From Lytechinus pictus (lineage: Eukaryota): DNA of 64,000 nucleotides. Numbering within the stretch: the first letter of the stretch is position 1; each line of letters starts with the position of its first letter. The DNA is taken from NCBI RefSeq assembly GCF_037042905.1, contig NC_087251.1, positions 868,001-932,000 of the forward strand. The letters run 5' to 3'. Under the pieces are notes generated by a model. That model was not told the origin of the DNA and did no database searches. It was given only the letters and a program-made list of their open reading frames with translations. The position numbers and the translations under genes were made by a program. Below, in pieces: positions 10,690-63,733 of the stretch.

Positions 10690-10900
10690 TGATTGTGATA
10701 ATGATTATGATGATGATGGTGATGATGCTGATGGTGATGATAATAATGATAATGATGTTGATGATGATGATGATGATGATGATGATGTTGATGATGATGA
10801 TGAAGATGATAATGATGATGATGGTGATGATAACTATGGTGATGACAACGATGAAGATGATGACAATGAGAATGGTGATGATGATGATGATGATGATGAA
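10690..10900. repeat. (GAT)n microsatellite
   Basis: Directly visible; adjacent to a SINE/LINE-tail-like remnant at ~10912-10956. Confidence 0.9.
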
Positions 10901-21029: not shown

Positions 21030-21232
21030 GCCATCCTCATCACCTACACTGCTATCATCATCTTCATCATCAACAACACATTATTAAACATGTATCATTA
21101 CAAACACTGCCATCATTATCATAAGTGCTATCATCATCACCATCATGATCATCTTCATCATTATCAACAGATTATTCCATTCACTTACCTACATTGCAGT
21201 CATCATCATCATCATGGTCATCATCATCATTT
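21030..21232. repeat. Degenerate (CAT)n microsatellite abutting the SINE tail
   Basis: Directly visible. Confidence 0.75.
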
Positions 21233-30000: not shown

Positions 30001-33000
30001 AAATACCTTTAAAATTATTATTTTTGTTATTATTATTTCTAAACATTGTTAGGCAAGAGGGAAAGAAAATTAGATACAGTTGATGCAAGATTTAAAGCTA
30101 GTGATCAATAACTATAACAAATCTTTTGGTGCTAACCCAATGAGTTTTATCATCCCAAATCCTTTGAAATTACATTACATATTGGTTTGATTTAACTATA
30201 ATGCTTAGAAAGGTTGAAGTCTATATGAACTCTGTACAACTATTTATACATTGTAGGAACCAAATGAAAGTCAATTGAATGTAAATACACAGCCATCAAT
30301 ATCTAAATCTCCAATTTTTCAACATCTCTACCTGATTCCTACATTTTCAAGATATACTCAAATTATGAAATTTTATGAGCATAAAAATCCCATCAAATAG
30401 AAGGCAAAGAAATTAACAATGTGGACCCAAGTGATTTTATTATTTCCAAACATGACAATTTGCTCCCATAGATTTTCAAACGTTCCGACATTCCGCAATG
30501 TTCCATAAGTTGTGATTCTTACAAATTGTAGTTGATGCAATTTACTACTGCCATGACACTAGAGAATCTGGGTTAATTTAACAGGGGAGACTCTTAACTT
30601 AGGGCTTGCAAAAAAACTGATTTATTTTATTCTCAGGGGAAATAATAAGCAATTGGGGAAAGGATAAGTTGATTTGTGTGGGCACATGTACAGAGCTTTA
30701 ACATATTAAAGGTTATACCTGTTGAGGTAATGCCATACTACATGTAAATATTAATTTTGGAACAGGTCTATACATAGAGTTTGAAGAAATACAGAAATCA
30801 TCTAATAGTGAATTTTTGGTAAACAAAGTCATATTTTCAACAATAAGTCATCTCTCTGTGAAATGCAATATGTAAAAATGTCTAGGTGATTGCATTATGT
30901 TAATTACAAGGTTGAAGGTATTATCACCTTTAAAAATAGAAGAGATTTATATTTTGTACTTATTTAACCATTTTAAACTATATTTTCCCCCATCATTTAC
31001 ATGTATGGGTAAGAACGACCAAGGTAATATCACCTTTAAAAAATATAAGAGATTTATATTCTGTACTTATCTAACTAAATAAATAAGTGTTTGGTACTGT
31101 ACTCTGATGAGTGCATGTCGAAAAGCTTCAGTATGTCAGTTTTTAAGGCTCTTTTACAACTTATCAAACTATTTTTACTAGATTTCCCCTCCCCCCATCA
31201 TTTATGGGTCAGAATGACCTCCTATTATAGCTTACTCTGTTTTGGATTAATTGTCAAAGGTCTTTTCAAATCTCAATAATGAATTTACATTCTCAACATT
31301 AATTTGTATTTTTTACATAAGTAATATATTGAAAATCAATTGTTCTATGAAACCTGTTTGCTTGATATGAAGAATATATTCTTCTTATTGTATTCAAAAC
31401 ATTTAAAATATCACTTCGTATTATCCTTCTGAGAATGAACTGGTTATAGAATTATTATTCAAAGATGAATGTAACATAACCTTTAAAGATGAGATGAATA
31501 TCATTGAAACATGAGGTTCATCAATTCAGACATTCATTTCCATATGGGAACATGAGGTTCATCAATTCAGACATTCATTTCCATATGGGAACATGTGGTG
31601 ATATCAATAATGGTACTGTGATCCTTCATACTTGCAGTGAAAAAATATGGTGCAGCTTTATTGGTAATAACAGCACAGCAAAATATTTTGATCACAATTG
31701 TTACAAACTAGGGTAAATATTTTCATAAAAGTCTTGAGAGCAGAGAGTAGTCTTGGGTTTCTTTTAAGAATGAGCTTGATTTTCTTATAAATGTGAATGT
31801 TTAATGCATACAGATAAAAAACAAAGTATAAAATTCATCATACAATAATTCTTACAATAAATTACCTTATCAGGTCTGTATAGAAGCTGATATTTGATAT
31901 TGAGAGGTTTTGTGAAACAGGGTCCAGGAGATTGTTACACAAAGCTCAACAATTGATTAAATATAATGATCAATAACCAATGAAGCATAACAAATCAGCC
32001 CTATGACCAACTGGTAAGCTCTGATTTACCGGCCCAACAAGAAAAAATATTAGAAATTTATTAACTCTTTGTACATGGTTTGCCATAGAATTAGCTATAT
32101 TAGTCCAGGATAGGCCCCATAGAAACTTGACCAAACCTTGTTTTTTTATATATACAATATTTTTTGATGGTTTCTTGTCAATTCGAGGGTGCTGATTACG
32201 AATCTTGATGATGCCACTCGTGTAACCTTGAGCATTTTCCGCAAATTGGCAAAATCCAATATGGCCGCCAAAATATTAATAATACCCATGAAAATCCTAA
32301 AATTGTCCGCACATTGGCTATGAAATGCATGAAATCGTGTGGCAGGAGTAAAATACTCTCTGAAAAAAATAATTTTTGACAAAATATTTATTTTCCTGAT
32401 ATTCAAAATGGCCGCCATAGGCCCTTGTATACTCTATTATGTACAATATGAATAGGGAAAACTAATTTTCACAAAAATGAGCACTGAACCGCAAAAAATC
32501 GCGATGTATGAACGAAGTAATGTATGCAAATCATCATTACGAACGAGATATATATCATGTATTATGTCATAATATGGGAACATTGCTGTATTTGATATCT
32601 AAAATAGCCGCCACTGGCCCAAAGAGTATGTACAATGGCAATGGCTGGGGCCAAAAAAATGACAAGAGTGAGCACTAAAATGCATATTATTAAGATAAAA
32701 TTAACGAGTGGAATACTGACTAAAAATAATATGCCATTTATGTGATAAATGCTGTATTTTGAAATTCAAAATGGCCGCCATAGGCCCTATATTTATCATG
32801 TACAATGCGAATGGAGAAACAAATTTTCACACGAGTAAGAAACATAAAATGCATGTAATTGTGATCTACGAGTAAAATAATGTCTGACAACATGTTTTAT
32901 AGCAAGACATATCATTTCTTTTGTCATGCATGAGATAAATGCTGTATTATGAAATTCAAAATGGTCCCTATATACCGTAGGTCCTAACAGTATTATCTAC

Positions 33001-36000
33001 AATACAAATGGGGACATATTATTTTGTAAGAATTTGGATTTGCTTGACTATGACATCCATATAATCCTTTTGTATGAGTAAAATGTTATTTGAAAACTTT
33101 TTTTTAATTATAGCATTTCTTCTGCCATATAGGTGATAAATACTTTATTTTGACATTCAAAATAACCTCTACAAGCCCTAACTAAATTATGTAACATGCG
33201 AATAGGGAAACTAATTCTCACATGAGTGAGAGTCATAAAATGAATATAACTGTGATGTACGAGTAAAAATATTGTCTTAAACATGATTTATAACTGTAAA
33301 TATATCACATATTGGTCATGGAAGTAATAAATGCTGTACTTTGAAATCCAAAATGGCTGCCATAGGTCCTAAAAGTATTGTGTACATTGTAACATGGGAC
33401 ATATAATTTTGACAGAATTTGGCTTTGCTTGACTCTAAATATTGCATATAATTGTGAATTGTGATGTAAGGGTGAAATATTGTCCAAACCCATGGTTTCT
33501 AACGAGATATATCATAATGTTGTGTTGTTGTGTAATTAAGGTAAAAAATGCTGCATTTTTAAATTGAAAATGGCCACCATAGGCCCTTATCGTATAATAT
33601 ACAATTTGAGTGGAGACAAATAATGTTCACATAAAGGGCATATGGCAGCCATTTTGAATGTTGAAATACAGTATTTATCACCTAAATTACATAGGATATG
33701 ATATATTTTGTTATAAATCATGTTTTCAGACAATATTTCACTCATACATCACCATTTAGCCAAGCAAAGCCAAAATCTGTTGAAATAATTTGTTCCCATT
33801 CAGTTTGTGCATAATACCGTAAGGGCCTGTAGCGGCCATTTTGACTTTCCAATAACAGTATTTATCACCTAACTGGCAGAGTACATGATATATCTAAATA
33901 GAAATTATGCTTTCAGACAATATTTTACTCATAGATCACTATTACATGCATTTATGGTGCTCACTCCTGTGAATATTGGTTTCCCACTTTGCATTGTACA
34001 TAATACAGTTAATGTCTATGGCGGCCATTTTGAAAGTCAAAATACAGTATTCAACATAAACTTGAAACCTAAATTATATATTTCGTTAGAAAATTACGTT
34101 TTTAGACAGTATCCCATTAATTTATCACATTATATATGCATTTTAGTGCTCACTCTTGTGATTTCTTTGCTCCTTTTTCTCATTGTGCTTAGTACTTTTA
34201 GGGCCTTTGGCAGCCATTTTGAATATCAAAATACAACGTTCATCACATACATGGCATATTAATAATATATTTCGTTAACAATTATGTTTTTAGTCAGTAT
34301 TCCACTCGTTTATCTTAATAATATGCATTTAAGTGATCACTCTTGTGAATTTTTTGGCCCCCATTGCCATTGTATACGCAATACTGTTTGGGCCAGTGGC
34401 GGCTATTTTAGATATCAAAATACAGCAATGTTCCCATATATGACATAATAAATGATATATCTCGTGAGTAATGATGATTTGCATATATTACTTCGTTCAT
34501 ACATCGCGATTTTTTTGCAGTTTAGTGCTCATTTTTGTGAAAATTAGTTTTCCCTATTCATGTTGTACATAAAAGAGTATACAAGGGCCTGTGGCGGCCA
34601 TTTTGAATATCAGGAAAATAAATATTTTGTCAAAAATTATTTTTTCAGAGAGTATTTCACTCCACACAATTTCATGCATTTCATAGCCAATGTGCAAACA
34701 ATTTTAGGATTTTCATGGGTAATTTGCATATTTTGGCGGCCATATTGGATTTTGCCAATTTGCGGAAAATGCTCAAGGTTACACGAGTGGCATCATTCAG
34801 ATTCGTAATCAGCACCTTCGAATTGACAAGAATTCATAAAAAAATATTGTATATATAAAAAAACAAGGTTATGCCTCTTCTATCCTGGACTATATTTCAT
34901 TGCTCAACTGATTGTCCCCTGTGTTTAAAGGTCAAGTCCACCCCAGAAAAATGTTGATTTGAATCAAGAGAGAAAAATCAAACAAGCATAACGCTGAAAA
35001 TTTTATCAAAATCAGATGTAAAATAAGAAAGTTATGATACTTTAAACTTTGCAAATGAGAGAGTTGATGATGTCCCCCTCACTCACTCTTTCTCTTGTTT
35101 TTTATTGTTTGAATTATATAATATTTCAATTTTTACAGATTTGACCATAAGGACCAACTTGACTGAAACATAAAATGATAAAACAATGGTATTTCCCCAT
35201 GTTCAAGGTGGAAAGAAAACTTTTTTAACAGGAGAATGAGGAAAAATTAGAATATTTCATATTTCATATAATAAATCCAAAGGAAATAGTGACGTCATCA
35301 GTCCCCTCATTTGCATACCAACCAGGATGTGCATATAACTGCTTTGTGAAATTATGCAAAACTTAACAAAAGTGTCGCTAAGGCAAGCACATAATACGCC
35401 CGCCCGTAATGCGGAAAATTTAGTTATTATTCAAGCAAGAAAAGTGGAAGGTGGTGACTTCACCTTTGACCTTCTAACCTCAAAATCAATAGAATTGCTG
35501 GGATCTACATGTATACTAGTATCATAAACACCAAATTATATGAGCCTAGGTTAAGTTCAACAAAAGTTATTGCGTTAACAATGATTTCAGAAGGGAAAGA
35601 TGAAACATGTCACTGAGATCTTAAACCTTTGACCTTTTGACCTCAAAATCAATAGGCTACCTGGGAACCATGCTAGTATCATAAACACTAAATTATATAA
35701 GCCAAGGTTAAGTTAAACTGAAGTTATCGTGTTTACAAGGACTGCAGAAGGGCAAGATGAAAATATGTGACTGTGACCTTGATGACATAATACCTCTCGT
35801 ATATAAATGTCATAACTTTCTTATTTCACATCCGATTTTGATGAAATTTTCAGTGTTACGCTTGTTGGATTTTTTCTTTTTATTCACATCAACATTTTTG
35901 TTGGGGTAGGCTTGTCCTTTAAGTTTGGTGCTGTGGAGGGTAAAAAATGGGCGAGCACCAACACCAAGAGGTCGACACCAAACTTGGAATAACCCACTGG

Positions 36001-39000: not shown

Positions 39001-42000
39001 ACTTTTACCTGATTCCTAAATACCTGTTCATTAATTCACCCTCAATTTCCTCAAAGAATTGATATGAAAATGGTGCACAAATTTAATTGTACATGTATGC
39101 ATACATTCCACAGGGGTAATACTATCATTTGTCTGCAGAATCCAAACTATTTGAGAATTCCAAAATGAGATCTAGTGTACCTATAGTGTGGACTGGGGAT
39201 AGCAGTACTAGAACTGCAAGACCATTCTGCTCTTAAAACTTTCATTATTTCATTTTTCAAGAAACAGTTCGCTAACAATCATCACCTATAGCAAGAGAAG
39301 ACATAAGCAGAGATTATTTTGCCAAAAAATTCACTTTTTGGGATCTCTTATATTGCTGCTTGAACTCTGCTATTTCCATTTCTGAAGCTTGAAAACTTGT
39401 TTCAATGGTAACTGACCATGAAAGATTGACTAGGCATGATCAAGATTGTCATTATTTTCATTTTCATTATTTCCTTTTTTAAGGAGCAGTTAAAGGACAA
39501 GTCCACCCCAACAAAAAGTTGATTTGAATAAAAAGAGAAAAATCAAACAAGCATAACACTGAAAATTTCATCAAAATTGGATGTAAAATAAGAAAGTTAT
39601 AATATTTTAAAGTTTCGCTTAATTTCACAAAACAGTTATATGCACATCCTGGTCAGTATGCAAATGAGGAGACTGATGACGTCATCCACTCACTATTTCT
39701 TTTGTATTTCATTATATGAAATATGAAATATTCTAATTTTCTCCTCATTGTCACATGACACAATGATTAATTCCTGGCTGAACATGTGGAATTAGCATTG
39801 TTTAATACTATATGATTCAGTCAACTTGGTCCTTATTGTAAAATCTGTAAAAAATGAAATATTGTATAATTCAAACAATAAAAAACAAAAGAAATGTGAG
39901 TGATGGACATCATCAAGATTTTCATTATTTTCATTTTCATGATTTCCTTTTTTAAGTAACAGGTAACTTATAATCCGCACCTATAGCAAGAGAAGACATA
40001 AGCAGAGATTATTTTGCCAAAAAAATCACTTTGTGTGATCTATTATATTGCTGCTTGAACTCTGCTATTTCCATTTCTGAAGCTTGAAAACTTGTTTCAA
40101 TGGTAACTGACCGTAAAAGATTGACTAGACATGATCAAGATTTTCATTATTTTCATTTTCATTATTTCCTTTTTTAAGTAACAGTTAACTAATAATCCGC
40201 ACCTATAGCAAGAGAAGACATAAGCAGAGATTATTTTGCCCAAAAATTCACTTTGTGGGATATATTATATTGCTGCTTGAACTCTGCTATTTCCATTTCT
40301 GAAGCTTGAAAACTTGTTTCAATGGTAACTGACCATGAAAGATTGACTAGACATGATCAAGATTTTCATTATTTTCATTTTTATTATTTCCTTTTTTAAG
40401 TAACAGGTAACTAATAATCCGCACCTATGGCAAGAGAAGACATAAGCAGGGATTATTTTGCCAAAAAATTCACTTTGTGGGATATATTATATTGCTGCTT
40501 GAACTCTGCTATTTCCATTTCTGAAGCTTGAAAACTTGTTTCAATGGTAACTGACCATGAAAGATTGACTAGACATGATCAAGATTGTCATTATTTTCAT
40601 TTTCATTATTTCCTTTTTCAAGAAACAGTTAACTAATTATCCGCACCTATAGCAAGAGAAGACATAAGCAGAGATTATTTTGCCAAATAATTCACTTTGT
40701 GTGATCTATTATATTGCTGCTTGAACTCTGCTATTTCCATTTCTGAAGCTTGAAAACTTGTTTCAATGGTAACTGACCGTAAAAGATTGATTAGACATGA
40801 TCAAGATCTCTTGCAACTAACAGCGAAAGATCAATATGGCACCTTCAAGAAAGGAAATCCACTTGGAATGATGGAAGAAAGGTTTAGAAAAATAGTTTAG
40901 TATTTAGAAACTGCTATTTGTAATGTTCAAATCCTTATGCCAGCTTGAAAAGTCATGTTCAAACTGCATTCCGAGTCTCTCAAAGAAATATCATTATTGC
41001 AAACATTGTAGCCTCATCAATCTTTCATTATTATTTTCAAGAGATTCAAAGAGTTCAATACCAGTTCATCATCTTCAGTTGTAGACTTAAACCAGACAGC
41101 TTTACCTTTCTTCATACAAAGGAACATCTTAACCTCCTCCTACGTAAACATTTGAAAGTTCTTTTGAAGGGGTTGGTTTCATGATATTTGTTCATGTTCT
41201 CCCTTTCTCTCATTTCTTTCATAAGGCATGTCTTCATCAGCTCTAGTTCGCTTGATCTTGAAATTCTAACCCTTATTCATTGAAGCCACATCCCTGACCT
41301 GGGGGCTACTTTAAGGGGCAACAAATTCAGGGGAGGCCAAGGGACCGACTACCAAGGGGCCGAGTAGAGGATATATCGCCAGCTGAAGAGGCCAGGACTG
41401 GGCTGACTGCCATAGGCTGAGTGGGGCGTGTCACAGGCTCACAGCCAGACAGACGATGGTTTAGGGGCTCACTTCCGACTTTCTTTATAAAATTAAGTTA
41501 TCCTCATTTGTTTTCAATATATACATATATAAATATATATTATTGAATGCTTATTTACAAACTTTGTAAAACAAAAAACAAATCAAAAGGGAATGGATTG
41601 AGACTTGAGCATTAAATCTGTATAAACTGTAAACATTTTTACACATTCTATTTGTGCGTCAAGTAGTAGTAAATAAACGAAAAAAGGTCACTTCATTTTT
41701 CATTTTTTGTGTGATATCATTAACTTAGGCTGATGGAGATCAGTCTATATTCCAGCTGAGTGAGCTGACAGCAACAAGGAAGAGGAAACATGATTCTAAG
41801 CATTGTTAGGGATACCAAACACCAATCCTATTAAGAGACTCAGAGACGTGTTTGATTGGATCTTGCCCATGGTAAGCTTTTCACACGAATGGAAAATGCA
41901 TTATTGGCCCTTTGAATTACCAAAGATATGATTGAACACAGAAACCCACAATAGCAATGACAAAATTATAATTGCTACAAGATACAACTAAGCTCATTGA

Positions 42001-48000: not shown

Positions 48001-51000
48001 AAAATACTGAAATAAACATTTTAACTTGCAATTGACTGGAACCATTTGCCATACATTTACACAAACCTTGAACTCGTCAATGCAACATTGGTGTGTTAGT
48101 CATAAGATCAGCCTAGAATTGGTCTCGATTATATGACTATATACAAGTATGGATCTCTCAAACCTAACTACTATAATCTTGCAAGGTGTTCTCGTGTGAA
48201 AGACCCCAATGAGAGGCATGGTCTTGTTGACAGAGCGAGACATGATTGGAGTCAATATTAGTTTAGGTGAGAATAGTTCCAGATAGGGATGGACTGATTT
48301 ATCATGCCAACATACCAAGGGAAGGATATCGATGATGTATTTGTTGAGGACTTCCTGTACCATCATCTTATCAAGTGGAGTAGAAAGTCAAGATAGATAA
48401 CCTAAATCTCATCTAGGGGCGTGTTCAATCAGTCTTTCTTTGGCTACAATCACAAACATGAATGACAAATCAAAACCACAAACATAGATCATGGTAACTT
48501 CAAGAGTATTCAATCATTTTTTCTTCAATATTTGTTTTCTCTTGAATCTTTTCCATCCAACCTACTGAGCATCACATATCATCGAGTTTGACCTAGGAAA
48601 TAAAGGTCAACTTGGAGTATACTCAATCCATGTAAAAAGCAGCCTAAAGTAGAATCATGATTGACATCTCTATTGTATTTGATTCATTTTAATGAACTCA
48701 ATTCTGCAGGGACTCTTTTCAAATTGTAGCAATTTCAACATTTCATATTTGTGTTTTGTAAGACGTTTTTACTCCTGTGGTTTGTACAATACTTCTTTTA
48801 AAACCTGTTTTTAAGGTAAATTTAAAAAAAAAAGAGTTGAATGAAGACAATCTCAGACAAACTCCCATCATTTAAAATAAAATAAATTGTCAATAGTGGC
48901 ATACATACATAATTAACCCATCTTTCATAACTTAAGGATTATTCTGATCTAATAATGCTTTCTAATTCCTCTCACTTGTGTTTTAAAAAGTGTAGATAAA
49001 ATATATTGTATAATACTTCTGAGAGTCAAAAGGGGCCTAAGCTTTCGATCCTAGCAGAATCTTCGTCGGAGGCAAAATGACAAAATAATACTTCTGATAT
49101 TTTTTTTCAGCAAAAGCATCATCCAGCAATGTCAAAGGTAACAAAATATCTTGCATGACATTTACAACAAATTTTCCCTTTCTCATCAAATATCAGTTTT
49201 TTAATGCCTTGTACAATCATCATAACAATTATTAACAAATATAATAATATTCTGAAACCGACTATAATGTCGAATTGTCATTTTAATTGAAAGATATTTG
49301 TGTGACATTAAATCTTATATTGTGCTCATTTATCATGACTTCTGAATTTTAGTTGACTTCTCAACTGGGTATGAACAGCTATGGTAAATAAGATGTCTGC
49401 ATGCAATCCAATAGCAATTCCATCCATCCTCTGTGTAAATTACAAACCAGAATTTCTAACAGTTCATGTCATGTCCAAGAAGCTATATAAGGCGACTAGG
49501 GAAACTTAGCTATTTCAAACTCTAATTTTCTGTGTGTGTATTCATCTAGATTTCATGAATATCTAGTTTTCTTTTAAAGTTTTTTTGCCAAAATCAAGAA
49601 ACTGTACATTCAATCATTGGGGAAATCAAGTGTAGTAAGACGGCTTGTTTGAAATGCAAATGTTATGCAACATGTAAACCTCCTTTGTTTATTATTCACC
49701 ATGCTCGATTAGAGAATATAACTTACCTCTGGAAATTTTAAAGACAAAATATTCCCATTAAATACTTATAGAAGAAAATTCTTAGCCTGTTAAACATATT
49801 CATATACCCTATCAATATTTCAAGAAAGAAAGATGAGATCTACAAAAAAAAGTGACACACTGAGTCATTGCATCTTCATGACAGCAAAGGTTTCACTGAA
49901 ATAATTCAAGATGATAAAATGATATGTCATTACATCAATCCCTGGGTTGAGTATCAATTAAAATAAAAACTAACATTAAAGCATCATCCCAATCACCTGA
50001 CCAGACAAAATGTGAGGAACAAAGTTAGACACTGCTGGGACTTATTTCTATTGCTATTCCATTTCACTTCTTTCTAAAACAATAACTGAAACACCCACTC
50101 AAATGCCCTTTATATGTTATGACATAAATCATGCAGATAACAAAGAAAATAGAACAATAAAAGATGGTATCAATATTTCCTGATTCTTTTCCAGTTACAG
50201 GCTTGACTCTTGGTAATAGAGTAGGAGTCTAAGGAAATAAAAAAAAGGAACTCTCTATTGAATAACTAGAAACCAGGTTCATGACCTCTGAATGCCGACA
50301 TGATGCTGAAATCTCAAGAGCTGGAGTCCACCTGCCGCTTGAAGTTTTCCAGACAAGCGCAGTGTCACAACCTGGTATCAACCCACCAACAGAGGGGGCC
50401 ATTCTCACTTTGGCATTGAGTTCCTTCTTGGAACATCTAAGTCCACATTATACAGATTCTGGCTTGCACACAATGCATACCCTTTATCCACTCCAACAGT
50501 TATAAGATTAAAATCAGAAAAGGGGTTTCACATTCCTCACCAATTAGGTTTACATAACAAGTGGAACGCCTCTGGCAGTCTCGCCTGCATTACGCAATTT
50601 AATATAGCAGCAGTGCTAACTTTGAAAACTACTATAAAATAATCATTCACAAAAACATCATTCATATAATGACATAATACCACGTTCATTGACCATAAAT
50701 GACATTTGAACAGAGACTTAAGACTGTCAACTACACCCATGTCCACATTTCATTCACTCTATCCATAAACTTTCAAAGTTATGATGGCACTTCAACAATT
50801 ACCCCAACATGGCCTAAGTTTATTGACCTTAACTGACCTTTGACTTGGTTTTGTGACCTGAAACTCACAGGGGATGTTCAGTGATGCTTGATTACTCTTA
50901 TATCCCAAGTTTTATGAACTAGATCCATAAACTTTCACAGTTAGGATGGTAATTCAACAAATACCCCCAACACGGCCAAAGTTCATTGACCTTTAATGAC

Positions 51001-57000: not shown

Positions 57001-59251
57001 GTTTAATTTATTTTTCTCCTTCCCAACACAACATTTTATGGCCAAGGCTGGATTCCCCTTTAACCATGTTTAAGATTTCTATGTTGATAACCAAAGCATG
57101 GTTTAAAGTTCTTTGACCCTAAATAACCTTTGAACTTGGTCATGTGACCTGAAACTTATGCAGGATGATCAGTGATGTTTCAATTTCATAAACAAGGTCC
57201 ATATAATTTCTTTAGCTATTATCACATTTCAAAAACTTCACCTTAGTTAAGATTTCAATGTTGATGACGCCGCTGTCGAAAAAGCGGCACCTACAGTCTC
57301 GATCTACTTTGCAGACAAGACCAAATAAAAAAAAAACCAAAATTTTAAACACAGAGGCCCACATTCTGAATTCAGGTGTAATTCAATCTCTGATCTATAG
57401 CTGTGGTTTAACTATGGATAGTCAGTTATGACACAAATCTCTAACAGTACAGGTTCAATCTATCAATTCATTTGACATTTTAATCATTCATATCTTTCTT
57501 GGAATAATGACTTAAGCATGAGGAACCAAATAATAAACATAAGAAATATAAAATGTAAACAAAATGTTGACATTTTCAGCTTGCCATAATTTAAGCACAG
57601 GGTTAGACCATGGTTTATTGTAAATTGGGCTTAAGAATACAAGCCAAAGTATAACATGCCTTTCGTGTCATATATGAATTGGCAATTTTCACACTAATTT
57701 CATATTAATTTCAACAGATTTTCAAGTCTAATACTATCAAGGGTCCATATAAAATAGGTTTTCAGATCAAATATTTCATCATCATATGAATGAAGTTGAT
57801 GATATTAATCATATAATATTGCACATGTATATAAGTATGAATGGAGCTTCAGATTGTTGTAACCACATGTCTTCTAAACTTGATTTGCTGACTGAATAAC
57901 ATTCACACAATACCATTTATCAACCCTTCTAACTCATAAACTGAACTTATATCTTGATTGGATTAGATGCTAATTCAGAGGTGCAAACAAGCTAAGGAAA
58001 AACCACAGCCACAGCAACAAGAAAATGGATTATAAACTGTCATAGACCCACACCAGAGCTAAAAGTGAAATTGACAAGTGGAAACTCTATATTATGCTAC
58101 AAAGCACAACAATGTAAATTTCACAAATACTAACCGCTTGCCAGCTGAGTTATTTGCATAAGAAGACTCCAATTATCGGGTTTCAAAAATATAATTTATG
58201 GCGCTCTTAAGGGCCTGAATTACTTGACATTGACATTTTACTGTGTCAGAAGTTATGTGATTACATAGGTTTAAAAGATTTTTTTTAAATTGATTTCCAG
58301 ATTTTGAATATTTCTTTAAAAACAATTTGTAGAGGGATTGATAGAGGCCTGAAGCTCTTGACTATGATTTGTGATTTCTATCTTTGGCTCTTATTTGGCC
58401 TTAATTGTTATGTCATGAAAAACTGTTACACATGATCTGAATGAAGATAGAGATGGTAAGTTGTGCCAAATAAGCAGGAAATAAAACATGGCAAAAACTA
58501 AATTAAAACCAGTAGGTTTTATAAATAAAGCATGCAGTAAAAGCTATTAATGATATCCTGATAAAGTGAAAATTATCAATTGTGTAATCTGGATAACGAA
58601 ACAATTATCCATTCCTTTCTGTGTACAAACCAATAGATGGAATCACAACGTTTCTGACACAGAAAGACATCATGGAATTGAGGCTGGTGGAAAGCACAAT
58701 TAAGCCTATTTGCAAAACCCAATATTGGAGCTAATCTCAAGCAAAATACTCAGCTGATAATGGTGAAAATACATAAAACTTGCACTGGTGTGTCTTGTAG
58801 TTAATAAGCCTCTGAATGCTATTTCATTAATCAATTTCACTTTTGGGTCTGGTTGGGGTCTCCAAAAATGATTTTTGCTATGCTTTGTTGCTTAATTCTT
58901 ACCCCAGGATCGGATGATGGGATGTCAAGTGAGTCTACTATATGAAGATCGTCTTGGGTCAATTTAACAGTGAGCGCAACCCTCAGACCATGAGCTCTTA
59001 TTTCATTAGGTAATACATACCAGTAGCTTCTAGGACCTCTTGGCCCCAATGCTTTACCACCTGTAAGTCAATCATATGAATGATAGAAGAAAAAAAACAT
59101 ATGTTGTATAAAGCTAGGAAAACTATGAAAGATGCTCTTGAAATCACAAGAAATAACATTACATACAAAAATTAAAGCTTTCATCATACTAAGCTCTAAC
59201 TGAAGACAACGCCATCCTAATCTAACAGCGATGTATGTTTCATTATACTAT

Positions 59252-59287
<36 letters not shown>

Positions 59288-59462
59288 TACTATTACTATT
59301 ACTATTACTACTACTACTACTACTATGATGACTACTATGACTACTACGATTACTACTACTACTATGACGACTACTACTACTACTACTACTATTACTACTA
59401 CTATTACTACTACTACTATGATGACTACTATGACTACTACGATTACTACTACTACTATGACG

Positions 59463-59494
<32 letters not shown>

Positions 59495-59543
59495 GACTAC
59501 TACTACTACTACGACTACAACTACTACTACTACTACTATGATG

Positions 59544-59602
<59 letters not shown>

Positions 59603-59624
59603 TTCTACTACTACGACTACTATG

Positions 59625-59656
<32 letters not shown>

Positions 59657-60101
59657 CGGTACTACTACCACTACTACTACTACTATGACTACTACTACTA
59701 CTACGACTACTATGACTACTACTTCTACTACTACTACTTCTACTACTACTATGATGACTACTACTACTATTACTACTACTACTACTATGATGACTACTAC
59801 TACTACTACTACTACTACTATGATGACTACTACTACTACTACTACTACGATGACTACTACTACTACTACTACTACTACTATGACTACTACTACTATTACT
59901 ACTACTACTATGACTACTACGACTTCTACTACTACTACTTCTACTACTACTACTACTACTATTATATACTACTATTACTACTACTACTACTACTACTACT
60001 ACTATTATATACTACTATTACTACTACTACTACTACTACTACTAATACTACTACTATGACTACTACTAATACTACTACTACTAATTCCACTACTATGACT
60101 A

Positions 60102-60138
<37 letters not shown>

Positions 60139-63100
60139 AATGATGATTATAATGACTGACCTCCAACCCAGATAGGTGATCTTCTGCTACCATGTCTAGC
60201 TCGACCAGTACCCTTCTGTCGCCATGGTTTCCTTCCACCTCCTCTTACCTCTGCCCTGCTTTTAGCATTTGCTAAACTCTGCAGCAATCAAACAAAATGT
60301 GCAACAATAGGATAATGGCTTTACAATTTTGTTATTTAACATAAATATTTTCAATTTTGTCAGTTTTTAAACACCATTTTGTTGACAGCCTTGGCAGAGT
60401 ATTAAACCATTGTTGTACAAAAACAAGTAGCACGCCCAAGGTACCGTAGTAGACTTCCCTAGAAATATAGAACAATTCCCAGACAAAGCATTATTCCTCG
60501 TTGAAATGTTAAGACATGGCATTGAAAATCCTGGAAAGGAAATTATTTTTCTACAAATTCAAATTTCTGCTCTTTAACAAAATCTGAAAGAATTTTATTT
60601 CAATGCAAATTGATGCCTATATTTGCACCCCACCCCACCCATAGAGAACCCACTACTTCTACTTGCCTGCCCATGTAACAAACAAAAAAGGTTTATACAT
60701 GGCTCAGCTTTTAAAGAAATGAATTGGTGGGCACATTAAAGTTAAATTAAATGTGATAGAAATGAGTCCTTTTCAAATAATACTGATACATGGTTACAAT
60801 CAAGTCATCCTTCTTATTCCTTGCTCATTTAAATGAGATGTCATATAATACACACATGATTTCAATTTCCAAAACTGAATATATTTTCAATTTCTCCTCA
60901 ATATTAAATCTCGAATGCTTTATTGTGCAGGTCCAAATTCACACATTATTGTGTGAGTAATATCAAACAATAAACAGGAAAAATATATATAATTGACATT
61001 TATAATTTATAATTATGGCTCGGTTAGGCTCAGTACTTCTTAACACTAATTGTTTATGGGTACAATGCATCATAAATCTGGAAAATTTTGATTTACCTTT
61101 GAAAGGTAAGAACATAGCTTTAACTTGATTAAGAAGATCATTCTCTGATATTATCAGGAAGTTTGTTTCATGCTGAGGGACTGTATACTGAAATGCTCTA
61201 TGTCCCTCTTTTTTCTATACGATATTTATATAGATACATACTATTCTCTTGTAATTTCTCTGCCATAGAACATTCCTATGTAAGATATCTATCCTGTGAA
61301 TGGAAGGGAAAAGAAAAGAGAATGGGGATAAAACAATAAACATGTAAGAAAAGAAATAAGACTTGTAGGAAGGAGGTGAATTCGTATAGTTTTGTATCCA
61401 GTAATGATTTAATTATTCCAAAGGCATGACTAGATTTCAACCTGTAGAGAACAGTTTTCTTACATTATAAATGATGATATAAAAAGAGATATATGTGGTG
61501 GATTCACAAAGCACAAAACCAAAAACTGACACTTGTGTTAAAGGGATGGTCCGGGCTGAAAATATTTATATCTTAATACATAGAGTAGAATTCACTGAGC
61601 AAAATGCCGAAAATTTCATCAAAATCGGATAAGAAATAATAAAGTTATTGAAGTTTAAAGTTTAGCAATATTTTGTGAAAACAGCCGTCATGAATATTCA
61701 TCAGGTGGGCTGATAATGTCACATCCCCACTTTTCGTTTTCTTATGTTATTACATAAAATCATTATTTTTTCATTATTTCATACTTGTGTGAATAATATG
61801 TCTCCCTTATAATGAAATACGTTGCAGCAATAAATATCTAATGCACTGAATCAGTTGTCAATCCAATTTTTCTAGTTCTTGGAGGAAAAAATTTGAATAA
61901 ACCTAATTTCATATAATAAAATACAAAAGAACAAGTGGGGATGTGACATCATCAGCCCACCTAATGAATATTCATGACGACTGTTTTCACAAAATATTAC
62001 TAAACTTTAAAATTCAATAACTTTGTTATTTGTTATCCGATTTTGATGAAATTTTCGGCATTTTGCTCAGTGAATTATACTCTATCTATTCAGCTATAAA
62101 TACATTCAGCCCGGACCATCCCTTTAAATGCTAGTCTATTTTAATATCAAGTTTATTAGAATGATCTCCAAGAAAAATGACACATGTTTACCAATGAAAT
62201 TTCATACAAAATCACACAAGAATGTTTTGTGTTGTCATTTCTGTTTAATTAGCAGAGGTAACATATTTATCAATAATACTATTCTATAGCATGAGTCTAT
62301 TGGATGTAACCTCACTGTGTAAATGTCCTCTTTCGTTTGGAGAACAGTATCCCTTTAATAAAATTCACCTCATGGTGATACTAGCTTGCTGTGCAACACC
62401 TTTCACTTTAAAACAAAGTGATCTCTAGTTGCAGTCTCAAGGTCCTTTAATACAGGGAATTATTTATTGAAGCCTTTCAACTGAATCAACAACTTGACTC
62501 TAAATCAACTTTTGATTAAAGGTTATAATCAAGGTCTGTGTCTATAGACTAGGATGGTACCTACCTAGGAAATGTAGCAAAGACATGTGGATGAAGATCT
62601 ATGAGACCAAGTTTGTTGTCTTCAAGTGAATTCATTGTTTCTAGCCATGCTTGAACAGGTTCTAATGTTGGATCAGAGTGAAGTAATTCTCTGCTTGTAA
62701 CCAGAGGTAAACCTGATGCTTCATCACTGGAGTAATCTACACCATATATTGAACAAAAAATGCATAATAAATTGCTTTAAGGTCAAGTCCACCCTAGAAA
62801 ATTGTTGATTGAATTGACAGAGAAAATCAAACAAGCATAACGCTGAAAATTCTAAGGGACAATTCTAAGTTTCGCTTATTCTTCACAAAACAGCTATATG
62901 CACAACTCAGTGATATGCAAATGAGAGTCGATGATGTCCCTCACTCACTATTTCTTTTGTTTTTATTGTTTGAATTACCGGTATACAATATTTAGATTTT
63001 AACAGTTGACAAGGACCAACTTGACTTTTTAATCATTATCCGTTAAAATAATGGTCATTCCGCATGTTCAGGGAGGAATAACATTTTGTTTCATTCACAT

Positions 63101-63733
63101 GACAATGAGAAAATTATAATTTTTCATATTTCATATAACAAAATACAAAAGAAATAGTGAGTGGGTGATGTTGTCAGTCTGCTCATTTCCATACTGAAAT
63201 AACTATTTTGCAAAATTAAGCAAAATTTTAAAATGTCATAACTTTCATATTTTACATTCCATTTTGATGAAATTTTCAGTATGTTTATTAGATATTTCTC
63301 CTTTTATTCAAATCAACTTTTTATTGGAGTGGACTTGTCCTTTAACAAAAAAAATCTGATAATGGTTTGACTTAGCTATAAGTGTGACCTTAGAGAAAAT
63401 TTGAAATGTCATACATGTTGGTATCACTTATTAGTGAATTAAGATAATAGAAAATGAACCTTTCATTGTCTTAAAGCTAACCGGGGCCTTCTTTCAATTA
63501 TATGTCATATCTTAGGCTATTGAAAGTGTGAAAGTAAGTGTTCAAATAGCAAAAACAAAATTGTCAAAGAATGTAATCTATATTTTATGTGATGTGCTAA
63601 AGTTAACAAGATACTTACATCTTTCTGTATTGCCATTCTTTTGATTGAACTTAATAAGCCATGAAGCATTCAGAGACCAGGAGGACCAGCATGATGATAG
63701 GGCTCCACTTCTACTAACTGATTTTACAAAAGT
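23853..63733 (-). CDS. MRPL4: 39S mitochondrial ribosomal protein L4 (uL4m), spliced gene, 5' end outside the window
   Basis: Exons 63619-63733, 62565-62736, 61242-61293, 60161-60278, 58903-59060, 55987-56045, 36086-36165 and 23853-24061 are all GT-AG and phase-compatible, totalling 963 nt. The product contains the uL4 motifs [42 protein letters not shown] and [16 protein letters not shown]. Confidence 0.95.
26185..26345 (-). promoter_or_regulatory. CpG-rich promoter-like island with CRE and E-box motifs and a candidate first exon
   Basis: TGACGTCA at ~26190 and ~26310, and CACGTG at ~26302 within GTCGACGTGCACGTGAGTGACGTCA. Minus-strand ATG at 26270, donor GAGG|GTAAGT at 26230. Confidence 0.45.
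27351..28079. mobile_element. HINE/Pearl-like element, family B, complete
   Basis: AAACAAGAGTGTCGC...GCGAGCAC hairpin end, four ~140-155-bp units containing TGACCTTTTGACCTCAAAATCAATAG, a (GACG)n tract, and the terminal hairpin CCGTCTAGGACGG followed by an A-run. Confidence 0.8.
28944..29522. mobile_element. Kolobok/T2-like MITE, family 1
   Basis: TTAA flanks; TIR AGGACAAGTCCACCCC...GGGGTGGACTTGTCCT (left copy degenerate); long internal inverted symmetry. Confidence 0.75.
31096..31140 (+). ncRNA. Minimal type I hammerhead ribozyme (Penelope-like element type) with degenerate stem II
   Basis: ACTG-TACT-CTGATGA-GTGCATGTC-GAAA-AGCT-TC-AGTA-tgt-CAGT: canonical core, palindromic AGCT loop, UC cleavage site, bulged stem I. 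Confidence 0.65.
31508..31594. repeat. Two-copy tandem duplication of about 42 bp
   Basis: AACATGAGGTTCATCAATTCAGACATTCATTTCCATATGGG occurs twice in a row. Confidence 0.85.
32101..34892. mobile_element. 2.8-kb non-autonomous Academ-like foldback transposon
   Basis: Termini TAGTCCAGGATAG / CTATCCTGGACTA with a 3-bp TAT duplication; inverted arms longer than 500 bp; internal repeats with AAAATGGCCGCC pointing outward symmetrically. Confidence 0.8.
34929..35918. mobile_element. Kolobok/T2-like MITE, family 1, carrying a HINE-B insertion
   Basis: TTAA-AGGTCAAGTCCACCCC...GGGGTAGGCTTGTCCT-TTAA. Confidence 0.8.
35366..35783. mobile_element. HINE family B fragment nested in a TTAA MITE
   Basis: Closely matches 27352-27740 and lies inside 34929-35918. 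Confidence 0.75.
36086..36165 (-). CDS. MRPL4: MRPL4 exon
   Basis: [26 protein letters not shown], matching uL4m EEMP...EA...KTFN; ttttacAG / GTAAAT; phases fit both neighbours. Confidence 0.9.
36320..36783. mobile_element. HINE family A copy, truncated where another repeat begins
   Basis: ACAAGTGGAGCGCCTCTGGCAGTCTCGCCTGCAT terminus plus two internal units, breaking off at ~36783. Confidence 0.75.
36784..37182. mobile_element. Truncated CpG-rich DNA-transposon fragment
   Basis: Repeated GTGAGAAC and AAGCGATCTTC motifs, ends GAGAACGGCC; abrupt composition change where HINE-A breaks off. Confidence 0.45.
39240..40806. repeat. 222-bp tandem repeat, about 5 copies, first copy interrupted by a MITE
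   Basis: The CACCTAT(A/G)GCAAGAGAAGACATAAGC anchor occurs at 39283, 39978, 40200, 40422 and 40644. Confidence 0.95.
39494..39913. mobile_element. Kolobok/T2-like MITE, family 1, right end lost
   Basis: TTAA-AGGACAAGTCCACCCCAAC left end; body matches the other copies and then merges into the 222-bp array. Confidence 0.75.
45119..45409. mobile_element. Degenerate Harbinger-like MITE
   Basis: GGTCCGTGTTCTGA...TCAGAATACAGGCC ends; related in inverted orientation to 57356-57645. Confidence 0.5.
45579..46568. mobile_element. Tc1/mariner-like MITE
   Basis: TA-CAGTGCGTATCAAAAAAAAGTTTACACTT...AAGTGTAAACTTTTTTTTGATACGCACTG-TA. Confidence 0.85.
49035..49073 (-). ncRNA. Minimal type I hammerhead ribozyme (Penelope-like element type) with a core U4C change
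   Basis: Minus strand reads GCCT-CCGACGA-A-GATTCT-GCT-AGGATC-GAA-AGCT-T-AGGC: stem I, CNGANGA core, stem II, GAAA, palindromic stem III, UH site, stem I. Confidence 0.7.
50556..51901. mobile_element. HINE family A, complete copy
   Basis: Sub-terminal inverted repeats GTCTCGCCTGCAT (50578) and ATGCAGGCGAGAC (51885), terminal hairpin, A-run flanks, and about 6-7 tandem units of ~163 bp. Confidence 0.85.
55138..55533. mobile_element. Degenerate Kolobok/T2-like MITE
   Basis: TTAA-AGGAGAAGGTCACC left end, GGGAACTTCCCCT right end, residual inverted symmetry. Confidence 0.45.
55987..56045 (-). CDS. MRPL4: MRPL4 exon
   Basis: [19 protein letters not shown](V), matching uL4m YL...WGDSVLLVD; ttccAG / GTAAGT. 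Confidence 0.93.
56217..57325. mobile_element. HINE family A, diverged copy interrupted by a TTAA MITE
   Basis: Both family A termini are recognisable; the copy is split at a TTAA by element 56465-57059. Confidence 0.75.
56465..57059. mobile_element. Kolobok/T2-like MITE, family 2
   Basis: TTAA-AGGGGAATCCAACC...GGCTGGATTCCCCT-TTAA; duplicates a TTAA of the host HINE. Confidence 0.8.
57356..57645. mobile_element. Degenerate Harbinger-like MITE
   Basis: GGCCCACATTCTGA...AAGAATACAAGCC ends; shares an internal AACTATGGATAG...ACACAAATCT block with 45119-45409. Confidence 0.5.
58903..59060 (-). CDS. MRPL4: MRPL4 exon
   Basis: (G)[52 protein letters not shown]; tacAG / GTAAGA. Confidence 0.97.
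59246..60138. repeat. (TAC)n microsatellite, ~890 bp, imperfect
   Basis: Directly visible; source of the poly-Y/T/V/S ORFs. Confidence 0.97.
60161..60278 (-). CDS. MRPL4: MRPL4 exon (conserved uL4 loop)
   Basis: [39 protein letters not shown]; tgcAG / GTCAGT. Confidence 0.97.
61242..61293 (-). CDS. MRPL4: MRPL4 exon
   Basis: (R)[17 protein letters not shown]; cacAG / GTATGT. Confidence 0.93.
61542..62123. mobile_element. Kolobok/T2-like MITE, family 3, young palindromic copy
   Basis: TTAA-AGGGATGGTCCGGGCTGAA...TTCAGCCCGGACCATCCCT-TTAA with ~200-bp near-perfect inverted arms. Confidence 0.85.
62565..62736 (-). CDS. MRPL4: MRPL4 exon
   Basis: [56 protein letters not shown](R), matching uL4m PVQAW...GLxDLHPxVFA; AG/GT boundaries. 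Confidence 0.93.
62780..63341. mobile_element. Kolobok/T2-like MITE, family 1
   Basis: AGGTCAAGTCCACCC...GAGTGGACTTGTCCT-TTAA with the same body as the other copies. Confidence 0.8.
63619..63733 (-). CDS. MRPL4: MRPL4 exon, N-terminal presequence-like region
   Basis: ttccAG / GTAAGT. Translates [38 protein letters not shown]: Ser/Lys/Arg-rich and acid-poor. Joins the next exon in frame as R-Y-Y-S-S, resembling a mitochondrial processing site. Confidence 0.7.

What the first reader, a model, noticed from the sequence alone, without database searches (positions are those of the whole stretch)
49010..49097. 62-bp insertion that is essentially only a hammerhead ribozyme, with a perfect 13-bp target-site duplication
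Seen: ATAATACTTCTGA is repeated at 49010-49022 and 49085-49097. The 62 bp between them read on the minus strand GTCA-tttt-GCCT CCGACGA A GATTCT-gct-AGGATC GAA AGCT T AGGC-cccttt-TGAC. Established: this is the minimal type I hammerhead architecture with palindromic stem III found in Penelope-like retroelement repeats and retrozymes, thought to cleave as dimers. Inference: a stand-alone ribozyme RNA, or an extreme truncation, was retroposed by target-primed reverse transcription. It lies in sense orientation in the 20-kb MRPL4 intron. The core reads CCGA instead of CUGA, so this copy may be attenuated.
Basis: partly seen in the sequence, partly recalled or inferred. Interest (0 to 1): 0.72.

Follow-up and report, generated by a model that had tools for sequence, protein, structure and literature searches.

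The report
Tiny Penelope-element insertion carrying hammerhead motif
A 62-base insertion flanked by a 13-base duplication is the shortest common form of the tail end of a Penelope-like jumping gene, a piece that folds like a hammerhead ribozyme; it is a real and fairly recent insertion, but an ordinary and probably inert one.

Summary
ATAATACTTCTGA stands at 49010-49022 and 49085-49097 around a 62-bp insert. DNA contigs of a related organism, from two studies, join the flanks and skip exactly 75 bp. So this is a true insertion with a target-site duplication.

The insert is not a stand-alone element. It is the 3' terminal module of a Penelope-like element (PLE) family with about 1,600-1,700 copies in this genome. 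The family has an RT + GIY-YIG ORF, variable 5' truncation, partial tandems, head-to-head pairs and an optional ~60-nt tail.

The motif fits the published minimal PLE hammerhead in every feature except U4. The C at position 4 is family-wide: 1430 copies have C, 21 have T. Rfam finds no hammerhead.

One result was unexpected. Hammerhead-only copies are the commonest form of the family: 35 of 82 sampled copies begin within 9 nt at the motif's 5' edge. The cause of this hot spot is unresolved.

Verdict: a new member of a known kind, of modest interest.

The parts
49010..49022 (.). Left copy of the 13-bp target-site duplication (ATAATACTTCTGA on +). Its last two bases (GA on +, TC on the element strand) could instead be the element's last two bases.
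   Evidence: sequence. table 5: the empty site in runs X2 and X4 skips 75 bases, with 12 letters fitting both sides; other copies end GACTC-TCTAA.
49023..49084 (-). 62-bp minimal, tail-less copy of the 3' terminal module of a Penelope-like element family. It lies at the very 3' end of the element, about 840 bp downstream of the RT/GIY-YIG ORF in long copies.
   Evidence: It is the only copy of this family in the window.
49085..49097 (.). Right copy of the 13-bp target-site duplication.
49070..49073 (-). Helix I, 5' strand (GCCU). It pairs with AGGC at 49035-49038. An outer pairing GUCA (49078-49081) with UGAC (49025-49028) closes the fold.
   Evidence: sequence; the minimum-free-energy structure contains these pairs; descriptor.
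49063..49069 (-). Core box CCGACGA, in place of the hammerhead CUGANGA. Position 4 is C instead of the conserved U. It is followed by the unpaired A at 49062.
   Evidence: Family-wide status. [quoted passage not shown]
49047..49061 (-). Helix II: GAUUCU, loop GCU, AGGAUC. It has 6 bp and is closed by G10.1-C11.1.
49039..49046 (-). GAA (positions 12-14), the palindromic AGCU (15.1, 15.2, 16.2, 16.1) and U17. By the hammerhead rule the cleavage site would lie between 49039 and 49038.
   Evidence: Numbering follows the min-HHR description read. Cleavage was not tested.
49035..49038 (-). Helix I, 3' strand (AGGC).

Best explanation
The insert is a dead-on-arrival, minimal copy of a Penelope-like retroelement (PLE). 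The element's GIY-YIG endonuclease cut an AT-rich site in what is probably an intron. Reverse transcription began at the first of the family's two internal start sites, just 3' of the hammerhead-like motif, so no 'tail' was copied. It ended about 62 nt later, at the 5' edge of that motif. Repair of the staggered cuts left the 11-13-bp duplication. The copy therefore holds only the element's terminal RNA module. That module has the architecture of the minimal type-I hammerhead of PLEs but carries C at core position 4, as the whole family does. As a lone copy it has no partner for the dimeric helix III. By analogy with the anole PLE, it also lacks the downstream RNA that the PLE protein needs. 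It most likely neither cleaves efficiently nor moves again. Shown here: the insertion, the duplication, the empty site, membership of the PLE family, the family-wide C4, and the clustering of 5' ends. Inferred: the order of enzymatic steps, the inactivity, and the cause of the 5' boundary.
For: Insertion and duplication. Contigs of a related organism from two studies skip exactly 75 bp. A contig of organism A runs from the left flank into the insert (48600-49047).

Same 62 bases at the 3' end of long elements: in 30 loci around identical copies, homology extends upstream for anything from about 0 to more than 1000 bp and always ends at GACTC-TCTAA or about 60 nt further on. Other copies have their own 9-17-bp duplications at their own truncation points.

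PLE identity: a 611-aa reading frame about 840 bp upstream of one copy has RVT_1 (35.3 bits, cut-off 29.6) and GIY-YIG (21.1 bits, just under the 22.6 cut-off). A second copy gives GIY-YIG 24.5 bits, above the cut-off. Other PLE traits seen: head-to-head inverted pairs; a tail in 28 of 82 copies, always ending raggedly at the same place; and 10 of 21 5'-complete copies preceded by a partial upstream copy, that is a pseudo-LTR. All of these are published PLE traits (passages of PMC8557442; main text of PMC11167929).

Motif: every min-HHR feature listed by Cervera and de la Pena is present except U4.

Abundance and youth: 1708 matches to a 34-mer at up to 2 mismatches, with 0 control matches; 1601 and 1430 exact 20-mers.
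Against: The 5' boundary is not random. 35 of 82 sampled copies start within 9 nt (+3 to +11 of the 62-mer), against 13 in the 25 nt upstream and 7 in the 22 nt downstream (binomial p 2.5e-11). So 'truncation' may be the wrong word for this class. The window copy itself starts at +1, just outside that peak. It shares this start with only about 20-25 other copies.

One 3' variant is over-represented among short copies: 14 short to 3 long, against 13 to 27 for the commonest variant (Fisher p 0.001). That could point to a partly separate source.

No hammerhead is found by Rfam at gathering score in the window or at E up to 10 in 48900-49200. The fold is no more stable than shuffled sequence (z -0.59; 52 of 200 shuffles fold as well).

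Inactivity is inferred, not shown. A U4C viroid hammerhead is reported to be weak in vitro yet viable in vivo (passage of PMC3088659).
Confidence: 0.88

Rival explanations
1. The short copies are not truncations. They are complete cDNAs of a very short RNA. On this view the module contains the element's internal promoter. Transcripts start at the 5' edge of the hammerhead (about +4 to +9). The PLE reverse transcriptase can start at the first internal start site it meets, 55-120 nt downstream, so the whole RNA 5' portion is copied and inserted.
For: There is a hot spot of 5' ends at +3 to +11 (35 of 82 copies). The same end positions appear as heterogeneous loose ends in contigs of the related organism, at 49077 and 49080/81 (table 7). 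Of 23 short copies with a recognisable duplication, 10 show no junction microhomology, so microhomology alone does not explain the peak. Of 21 copies that run on from the tail into the 5' UTR and ORF, 4 also begin in the hot spot. Published background (passages; text): PLE transcripts start in the upstream pseudo-LTR; D. virilis Penelope has a TATA-less internal promoter with initiator and DPE, and its start site lies 46 nt before a 75-nt intron whose end abuts helix I of the hammerhead. From my own recall of consensus motifs, not from any call: TCATTT at +5 to +10 fits an initiator, and GGATC lies 28-32 nt after its A, where a DPE would be.
Against: No RNA 5'-end data are available. All 24 listed runs are contigs, which cannot show starts. 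Ten of the 21 5'-complete copies extend upstream of the hot spot, so many templates started elsewhere. The window copy starts at +1, upstream of the proposed start. The promoter-motif match is recalled and was not scored against a background. Thirteen of 23 junctions do show 1-5 nt of microhomology with the T-run.
Confidence: 0.28
2. A distinct non-autonomous mini-element (retrozyme-like) that consists only of the hammerhead and is itself transcribed and re-mobilised in trans by PLE proteins.
For: Many copies share nearly the same boundaries and each has its own duplication. One 3' variant is enriched among short copies. A 2026 preprint (abstract only) and the abstract of PMC7229834 (search listing) derive animal retrozymes from PLE pseudo-LTRs.
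Against: All three main 3' variants occur in both long and short copies. The short copies are dispersed singles or inverted pairs, not the head-to-tail arrays that define retrozymes. Inserted copies end exactly at the reverse-transcription start sites. They therefore lack the RNA 3' of those sites, which the anole PLE protein needs on its template (about 55-60 nt beyond the start; PMC11167929). This last point is an analogy and was not tested for this family.
Confidence: 0.05
3. This copy is a working ribozyme that cuts the host pre-mRNA in which it lies, in sense orientation.
For: It lies on the same strand as the Ribosomal_L4 exons. The architecture is complete apart from position 4. A U4C viroid hammerhead keeps enough activity in vivo (passage of PMC3088659).
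Against: Minimal PLE hammerheads showed no detectable cleavage as single motifs and only low activity as dimers (PMC4209133). The anole PLE hammerhead cleaved only with the PLE protein present (PMC11167929). The window holds no second copy to pair with. C4 adds a further handicap. Intronic location is unverified.
Confidence: 0.05

Closest known systems
Minimal hammerhead motifs (min-HHR) in the terminal repeats of metazoan Penelope-like elements, and their solo genomic copies (Cervera and de la Pena 2014, PMC4209133; parts 1-2 of the text read)
   Same: Type-I layout. [quoted passage not shown] Long helix II (6 bp). An unpaired base between positions 9 and 10.1. A G10.1-C11.1 pair. Palindromic 15.2-16.2 with no real helix III. 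Location in the PLE terminal repeat. The paper already states that most motifs occur as single elements, probably truncated PLEs, and that pairs occur close together on opposite strands.
   Different: Position 4 is C in the whole family here, and the published descriptors fixed the catalytic boxes. The paper stresses extreme sequence variability within genomes (D. virilis excepted), whereas this family is nearly uniform. The paper as read does not mention a sharp hot spot of 5' ends at the motif's edge.
Poseidon PLE of Anolis carolinensis (PAc): internal initiation of reverse transcription and the 'tail' (Frangieh et al. 2024, PMC11167929; main text read)
   Same: Two alternative 3' ends a fixed distance apart, with or without a tail. 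AT-rich target sites. 5' truncation. A hammerhead next to the start sites. Hammerhead catalysis is dispensable for insertion in vitro, which fits a successful family with a non-consensus core.
   Different: The tail here is about 60 nt, not 30-40. Here the hammerhead ends about 5 nt before the first start site and lies far from the ORF (5' UTR of several hundred nt). In PAc the ORF starts inside the hammerhead. No biochemistry was done here.
Metazoan non-LTR retrozymes (abstract of PMC7229834 seen in the listing; Li et al. 2026 preprint, abstract only)
   Same: Small non-coding units with a type-I hammerhead, related to PLE pseudo-LTRs and presumably moved by PLE proteins.
   Different: Retrozymes are tandem arrays whose monomers become circular RNAs. 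The copies here are dispersed singles or inverted pairs. The window copy is solitary and lies within a gene region, where the preprint reports retrozymes are depleted.
Natural U4C hammerhead variant of a viroid (cited in Perreault et al. 2011, PMC3088659; passages)
   Same: The same core substitution, kept in a replicating lineage.
   Different: It occurs in a viroid with full tertiary contacts and a stable helix III. Activity of the present motif is untested.

Membership tests
Penelope-like element (canonical, C-terminal endonuclease) | Single ORF with reverse transcriptase followed by a GIY-YIG endonuclease | tested here: met
   RVT_1 at 35.3 bits (cut-off 29.6) and GIY-YIG at 21.1 bits (cut-off 22.6) in one 611-aa frame, about 840 bp upstream of a 62-mer copy. 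GIY-YIG at 24.5 bits in a second copy; a third piece gave no hit.
Penelope-like element (canonical, C-terminal endonuclease) | Heavy, variable 5' truncation with a constant 3' end, and target-site duplications of variable length | tested here: met
   5' ends range from inside the module to more than 1000 bp upstream. Duplications are 7-17 bp.
Penelope-like element (canonical, C-terminal endonuclease) | Partial tandems (pseudo-LTR) and adjacent inverted 5'-truncated copies | tested here: met
   10 of 21 5'-complete copies are preceded by the 3' part of another unit; head-to-head pairs (for example L007/L008, L029/L030, L035, L037, L056, L083, L131).
Penelope-like element (canonical, C-terminal endonuclease) | Optional short 'tail' at the 3' end | tested here: met
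   28 of 82 copies carry a tail of about 60 nt ending at ...TTTTTGCC(ATTG). The published length is 30-40 bp, so this one is longer.
Penelope-like element (canonical, C-terminal endonuclease) | Telomerase-like placement of the RT in a phylogeny | not tested
   No tree was built.
Hammerhead ribozyme (minimal type I of PLEs) | Core C3 U4 G5 A6 N7 G8 A9 | tested here: not met
   the box reads C C G A C G A, so position 4 is C. This is family-wide: 1430 exact copies with C4, 21 with T4.
Hammerhead ribozyme (minimal type I of PLEs) | G12 A13 A14, A15.1/U16.1, H17 | tested here: met
   GAA, A-GC-U, then U before helix I. Descriptor hit.
Hammerhead ribozyme (minimal type I of PLEs) | Helices I and II with G10.1-C11.1, an unpaired base after A9, and palindromic 15.2-16.2 | tested here: met
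   There were 0 descriptor hits in 200 shuffled windows.
Hammerhead ribozyme (minimal type I of PLEs) | Covariation in the stems across relatives | tested here: inconclusive
   Copies are too alike to vary. The changes seen are scattered point changes and CpG decay. More distant PLE families of this genome were not examined.
Hammerhead ribozyme (minimal type I of PLEs) | Match to a curated covariance model | tested here: not met
   no hammerhead family at gathering score, nor at E up to 10 in 301 bases. I did not test whether Rfam's models recognise helix-III-less PLE motifs at all.
Hammerhead ribozyme (minimal type I of PLEs) | Self-cleavage | not testable with these tools
   All runs found are contigs, which cannot show RNA ends.
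Non-LTR retrozyme | Head-to-tail tandem repeats of a short hammerhead-bearing unit | tested here: not met
   there is a single copy in the window; the 82 sampled copies are singles or inverted pairs.

The most novel reading that the evidence does not exclude
The hammerhead-like module of this PLE family doubles as the element's internal core promoter. Transcripts would start at the 5' edge of helix I. The reverse transcriptase starts internally just 3' of the module, so the commonest product of the family is a complete cDNA of the first 55-120 nt of its own RNA. On this reading the thousands of 'solo hammerheads' in animal genomes would be abortive first-site products rather than random truncations. 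The conserved non-consensus core (C4) would be kept for promoter or protein binding rather than for cleavage.
Probability: 0.2. Interest if true: 0.55.

Novelty: new member of a known kind. Interest (0 to 1): 0.3.

Why it matters
For the window itself it matters little. This is one inert retroelement scrap in a probable intron, useful at most as a presence/absence marker between two related organisms.

For the field, the family offers two small natural experiments. First, a PLE lineage multiplied to more than 1,400 copies with C at the otherwise invariant U4 of its hammerhead. This fits in-vitro evidence that hammerhead catalysis is dispensable for PLE insertion (PMC11167929). Second, over 40% of sampled insertions start within 9 nt at the motif's 5' edge. 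That points to a defined RNA 5' end or a reverse-transcription stop there. It could explain why solo minimal hammerheads so greatly outnumber full PLEs in animal genomes, and 5'-end RNA sequencing could test it directly.

Tried and rejected
1. Rfam scans found no hammerhead. The four weak hits (two snoRNA and two lncRNA families, E 2.7-4.9) are chance.

2. Thermodynamics: the minimum-free-energy fold is the hammerhead secondary structure, but z is -0.59, so it gives no support. My hand-typed structure string was two characters too long, so its energy value is meaningless and I discard it. The cofold dimer in the same call is a domain-swapped prediction that I do not use.

3. I searched for the family's 5' end. 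Four 9.6-kb loci and 3.4 kb upstream of one long copy showed no upstream hammerhead or tail. Those copies are 5'-truncated. The junction was found only through L065.

4. Sequencing runs: no RNA holder is listed and all 24 runs are Logan contigs. RNA starts, ends and cleavage therefore could not be examined. Contigs of run X10, whose RNA label is only a guess, cover parts of the 62-mer, and I draw nothing from that.

5. MRPL4 intron: Pfam scans of 300 minus-strand ORFs found no further L4 exon. The weak hits (B12-binding_2, TcpE, DUF6585, DUF3573) are below cut-off and I ignore them.

6. Earlier scan notes: nothing on this genome or sequence.

7. Lunse et al. 2017 on dimeric PLE hammerheads is not held. 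I know it only from a review's passages. Its supplements, and those of Cervera and de la Pena, may list C4 variants that I could not see.

8. A U4 (T4) subfamily as an 'active' lineage is rejected: 21 T4 copies against 16 for the control CpG.
Full report
**1. The observation**

One search shows ATAATACTTCTGA at 49010-49022 and 49085-49097, around 62 bp. The bases next to the two copies differ, so the repeat is exactly 13 bp. Among exact 13-mers repeated within 100 bp in this window, almost all others are micro- or minisatellites.

The strongest check is the empty site. I laid contigs of four public runs on 48600-49500. Two DNA runs of a related organism (coded B, studies P2 and P3) each hold one contig (3086 and 3368 nt, depths about 80 and 68). 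Each contig aligns to both flanks and skips 75 bases between 49010 and 49086, with 12 letters that fit either side (tables 5 and 8). The flanks differ from the window by about 6% substitutions plus small indels. A contig of the run labelled organism A covers 48600-49047, that is left flank into insert. That run holds 0.66 of the sampled words and may be the source sample.

So the 62 bp plus one repeat copy are an insertion in the window's lineage, and the repeat is a true target-site duplication. Other copies end GACTC-TCTAA. The first TC of the duplication could therefore belong to the element, making the insert 62-64 bp and the duplication 11-13 bp.

**2. What the insert is**

The 62-mer is repeated. 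41 places in the 811.7-Mb assembly match it at 62/62 (40 of 569 first-look candidates scored; one place is the window). A 34-nt core pattern has 1708 matches at up to 2 mismatches, against 0 for the reversed control. Exact 20-mers from its 3' and 5' halves occur 1601 and 1430 times.

In the 30 loci cut around identical copies, most are preceded by the same sequence (...GGTTGTTCCACTTTATATG). Homology to a reference copy extends upstream for very different lengths, from a few bases to more than 1000 bp. The downstream end is always either GACTC-TCTAA or about 60 nt further on. Many copies show their own 9-17-bp duplication at their own upstream break.

Longer loci show a reading frame about 840 bp upstream of the 62-mer. 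Pfam finds RVT_1 (E 1.3e-8, 35.3 bits, cut-off 29.6) and GIY-YIG in it. GIY-YIG scores 21.1 bits in one copy, just under the 22.6 cut-off, and 24.5 bits in another.

RT followed by GIY-YIG in one frame defines canonical Penelope-like elements. So do heavy 5' truncation, partial tandems, adjacent inverted copies and an optional tail (passages of PMC8557442; main text of PMC11167929). All were seen here:
- Inverted head-to-head pairs.
- A tail in 28 of 82 sampled copies, ending raggedly at one place.
- A partial upstream unit in front of 10 of 21 copies that run on into the 5' UTR and ORF.

The window holds only this one copy of the family.

**3. The hammerhead question**

Read with the standard numbering, the motif is as follows:
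- Helix I: GCCU paired with AGGC.
- Core box: C-C-G-A-C-G-A.
- An unpaired A.
- Helix II: GAUUCU/AGGAUC, closed by G10.1-C11.1, with loop GCU.
- GAA.
- Palindromic AGCU, then U17.

Cervera and de la Pena (PMC4209133, parts 1-2 read) describe metazoan PLE min-HHRs with the same set of traits. [quoted passage not shown] A descriptor written from these features, allowing C or U at position 4, finds only this locus in the window and nothing in 200 shuffled windows.

Against this stand three results. Rfam gives no hammerhead hit at gathering score, or even at E up to 10 in a 301-base scan. The fold is not unusually stable. Position 4 is C.

The C is not private to this copy. Of the first 100 listed exact matches, 98 have C and 2 have T. 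Genome-wide, 1430 exact 20-mers have C4, 21 have T4, and 16 have T at the neighbouring CpG used as a control. T4 copies are therefore ordinary CpG decay, not a subfamily.

Perreault et al. (PMC3088659, passages) note that core changes usually cause a drastic loss of activity. They also note that a viroid U4C variant, weak in vitro, is viable in vivo. I therefore file the motif as a relative of the PLE hammerhead with a non-consensus core and unknown activity. Covariation cannot be assessed because the copies are nearly identical.

**4. An unexpected regularity**

I drew a sample that is blind to the upstream sequence. It comprises the first 80 places listed for the 34-mer (contig 1 and part of contig 2), which gave 82 copies.
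- 44 of 82 have the usual upstream sequence.
- 35 of 82 begin inside the first 11 nt of the 62-mer. Maximal-extension starts are +3 (1 copy), +4 (4), +5 (7), +6 (1), +7 (about 10), +8 (about 6), +9 (about 4), +10 (1) and +11 (1).
- The remaining three are one internal deletion and two starts at about -5 and -1.

A BLAST-based estimate agrees. Of 68 copies with a qualifying alignment, 21 start inside the 62-mer, 13 within 25 nt upstream, and 17 reach the 290-nt limit; 14 had no qualifying alignment.

Copies truncated deeper are few. On contig 1, 25 copies have the 3' 20-mer but lack the exact 5' 20-mer. Of these, 7 start between +13 and +31 and about 4 share one internal deletion. The rest are point mutants or copies starting in the +3 to +8 zone.

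That gives roughly 4 starts per nt in the zone, against 0.3-0.5 per nt on either side (binomial p 2.5e-11 for 35 in 9 nt against 13 in 25 nt). In the related organism's contigs, heterogeneous loose ends pile up at the same positions (49077 and 49080/81). The loose end at 49084 carries the usual upstream sequence (table 7).

Of 37 short copies, 23 have a recognisable 7-15-bp duplication. Junction microhomology is 0 nt in 10 of these, 1-3 nt in 9 and 5 nt in 4. The T-run helps, then, but does not explain the peak.

The window copy starts at +1. Only 36 copies genome-wide have the intact first 28 nt preceded by a base other than the usual G. In the 30 of these that I examined, about 20 are independent starts at or just before +1, several with extra Ts. 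Four are inverted pairs meeting there, and four are ordinary copies with a mutation or duplication.

The window copy is a slightly longer member of that class.

**5. How it most likely works**

Shown: the insertion, the duplication, the family, and two fixed 3' ends about 60 nt apart.

Inferred by analogy with the anole PLE (PMC11167929):
- The protein nicks AT-rich DNA.
- It starts reverse transcription at one of two internal sites on the RNA. The stretch between the two sites is the tail.
- It copies towards the RNA 5' end.
- The copies lack the RNA 3' of the start sites, which the protein needs, so single insertions cannot serve as templates again.

That paper also reports that hammerhead catalytic mutants do not affect insertion in vitro. 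This fits a family that spread with C4.

Why so many copies stop at the hammerhead's 5' edge is open. One option is a stop or template exit of the enzyme once it has copied the structured module. The other, which I rate at about 0.2-0.3, is that RNAs begin there. Published work places PLE transcript starts in the upstream pseudo-LTR (review passages). It also gives D. virilis Penelope a TATA-less initiator/DPE promoter whose start lies 46 nt before a 75-nt intron (PMC2377424, passages), and that intron ends at helix I of the hammerhead. From my own recall of the consensus motifs, TCATTT at +5 to +10 and GGATC 28-32 nt after its A would fit an initiator and a DPE. I did not score this against a background.

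In support, 4 of 21 5'-complete copies also begin in the zone, among them one that runs hammerhead, tail, 5' UTR, ORF. Against, 10 of 21 extend further upstream.

One 3' variant is enriched among short copies (14 short to 3 long, against 13 to 27; Fisher p 0.001). I cannot explain this.

**6. Context**

Two Ribosomal_L4 (PF00573) exon matches lie at window 60156-60287 and 58897-59064 on the minus strand. The motif's sense strand is therefore the gene's strand, and the insert lies 9.8 kb downstream of the nearer exon. I found no further L4 exon among 300 minus-strand ORFs between 20022 and 58543. This is a crude test, blind to short exons and to sequence outside the Pfam domain. 'Intronic' remains likely but unverified.

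**7. Comparison with what is known, and verdict**

Solo minimal hammerheads as remnants of truncated PLEs, their dimer-only design and their low activity were described in 2014. The tail and internal initiation were explained in 2024. Earlier notes of this scan on other genomes reached the same kind of verdict for truncated PLE 3' modules in rotifers.

The present case is a new family member with three points of detail that I did not find in the texts I read:
- A family-wide C4.
- A sharp 5'-end hot spot that makes hammerhead-only copies over 40% of insertions.
- A longer tail.

I searched the paper library with 'Penelope-like' plus 'hammerhead', with the title of Lunse et al. and with 'hammerhead' plus 'U4C'. 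I cannot exclude that supplements I could not see, or Lunse et al. 2017 (not held), list such variants or boundaries.

Interest is modest: the finding is real, well explained and largely ordinary.

Noticed in passing
L145, L153, L163 and L150 (contig 1 of the window's genome): Three copies, and a fourth that is truncated, share one internal deletion. It removes helix I's 5' strand, the core box and half of helix II (...GTCATT|TTGCTAGG...), between two short direct repeats. So a hammerhead-less variant of the module has also been inserted more than once.
   Followed up: partly
82-copy sample (loci L065-L144): The 3' end of the module exists in three main variants (four Ts + GACTC, as in the window; four Ts + GACTT; five Ts + GACTT). 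Their ratios of short to long copies differ: 5:5, 14:3 and 13:27.
   Followed up: partly
window 39490-39914, 28938-29531, 62858-63345, 34924-35366 and 35804-35923: These are copies of another interspersed repeat of about 400-600 bp. It is also present as an inverted pair in the flank of locus L033. It is unrelated to the Penelope-like family and was not classified.
   Followed up: no
window 10690-10899, 1761-1893, 21030-21231 and 59246-59700: Minisatellite and microsatellite blocks (TGA/TCA- and TAC-rich). The first three resemble a tandem array next to locus L033.
   Followed up: no
window 31508-31595: A 47-bp exact direct repeat whose copies start 41 bp apart, that is an overlapping tandem duplication.
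   Followed up: no
window 58897-59064 and 60156-60287, minus strand: Two exon-like matches to Ribosomal_L4 (31.3 and 60.2 bits). A second L4-family locus lies on contig 3 of the genome.
   Followed up: partly
L013 and L015 (contig 11): Two copies of the element have identical flanks on both sides, about 3 Mb apart. This is a segmental duplication that includes the insertion.
   Followed up: no
L038, L043, L036, L042, L054, L061: Several copies that start at +1 carry two or more extra Ts between their duplication and the element. These may be untemplated additions at the 5' junction, or a start a few bases upstream in one subfamily.
   Followed up: no
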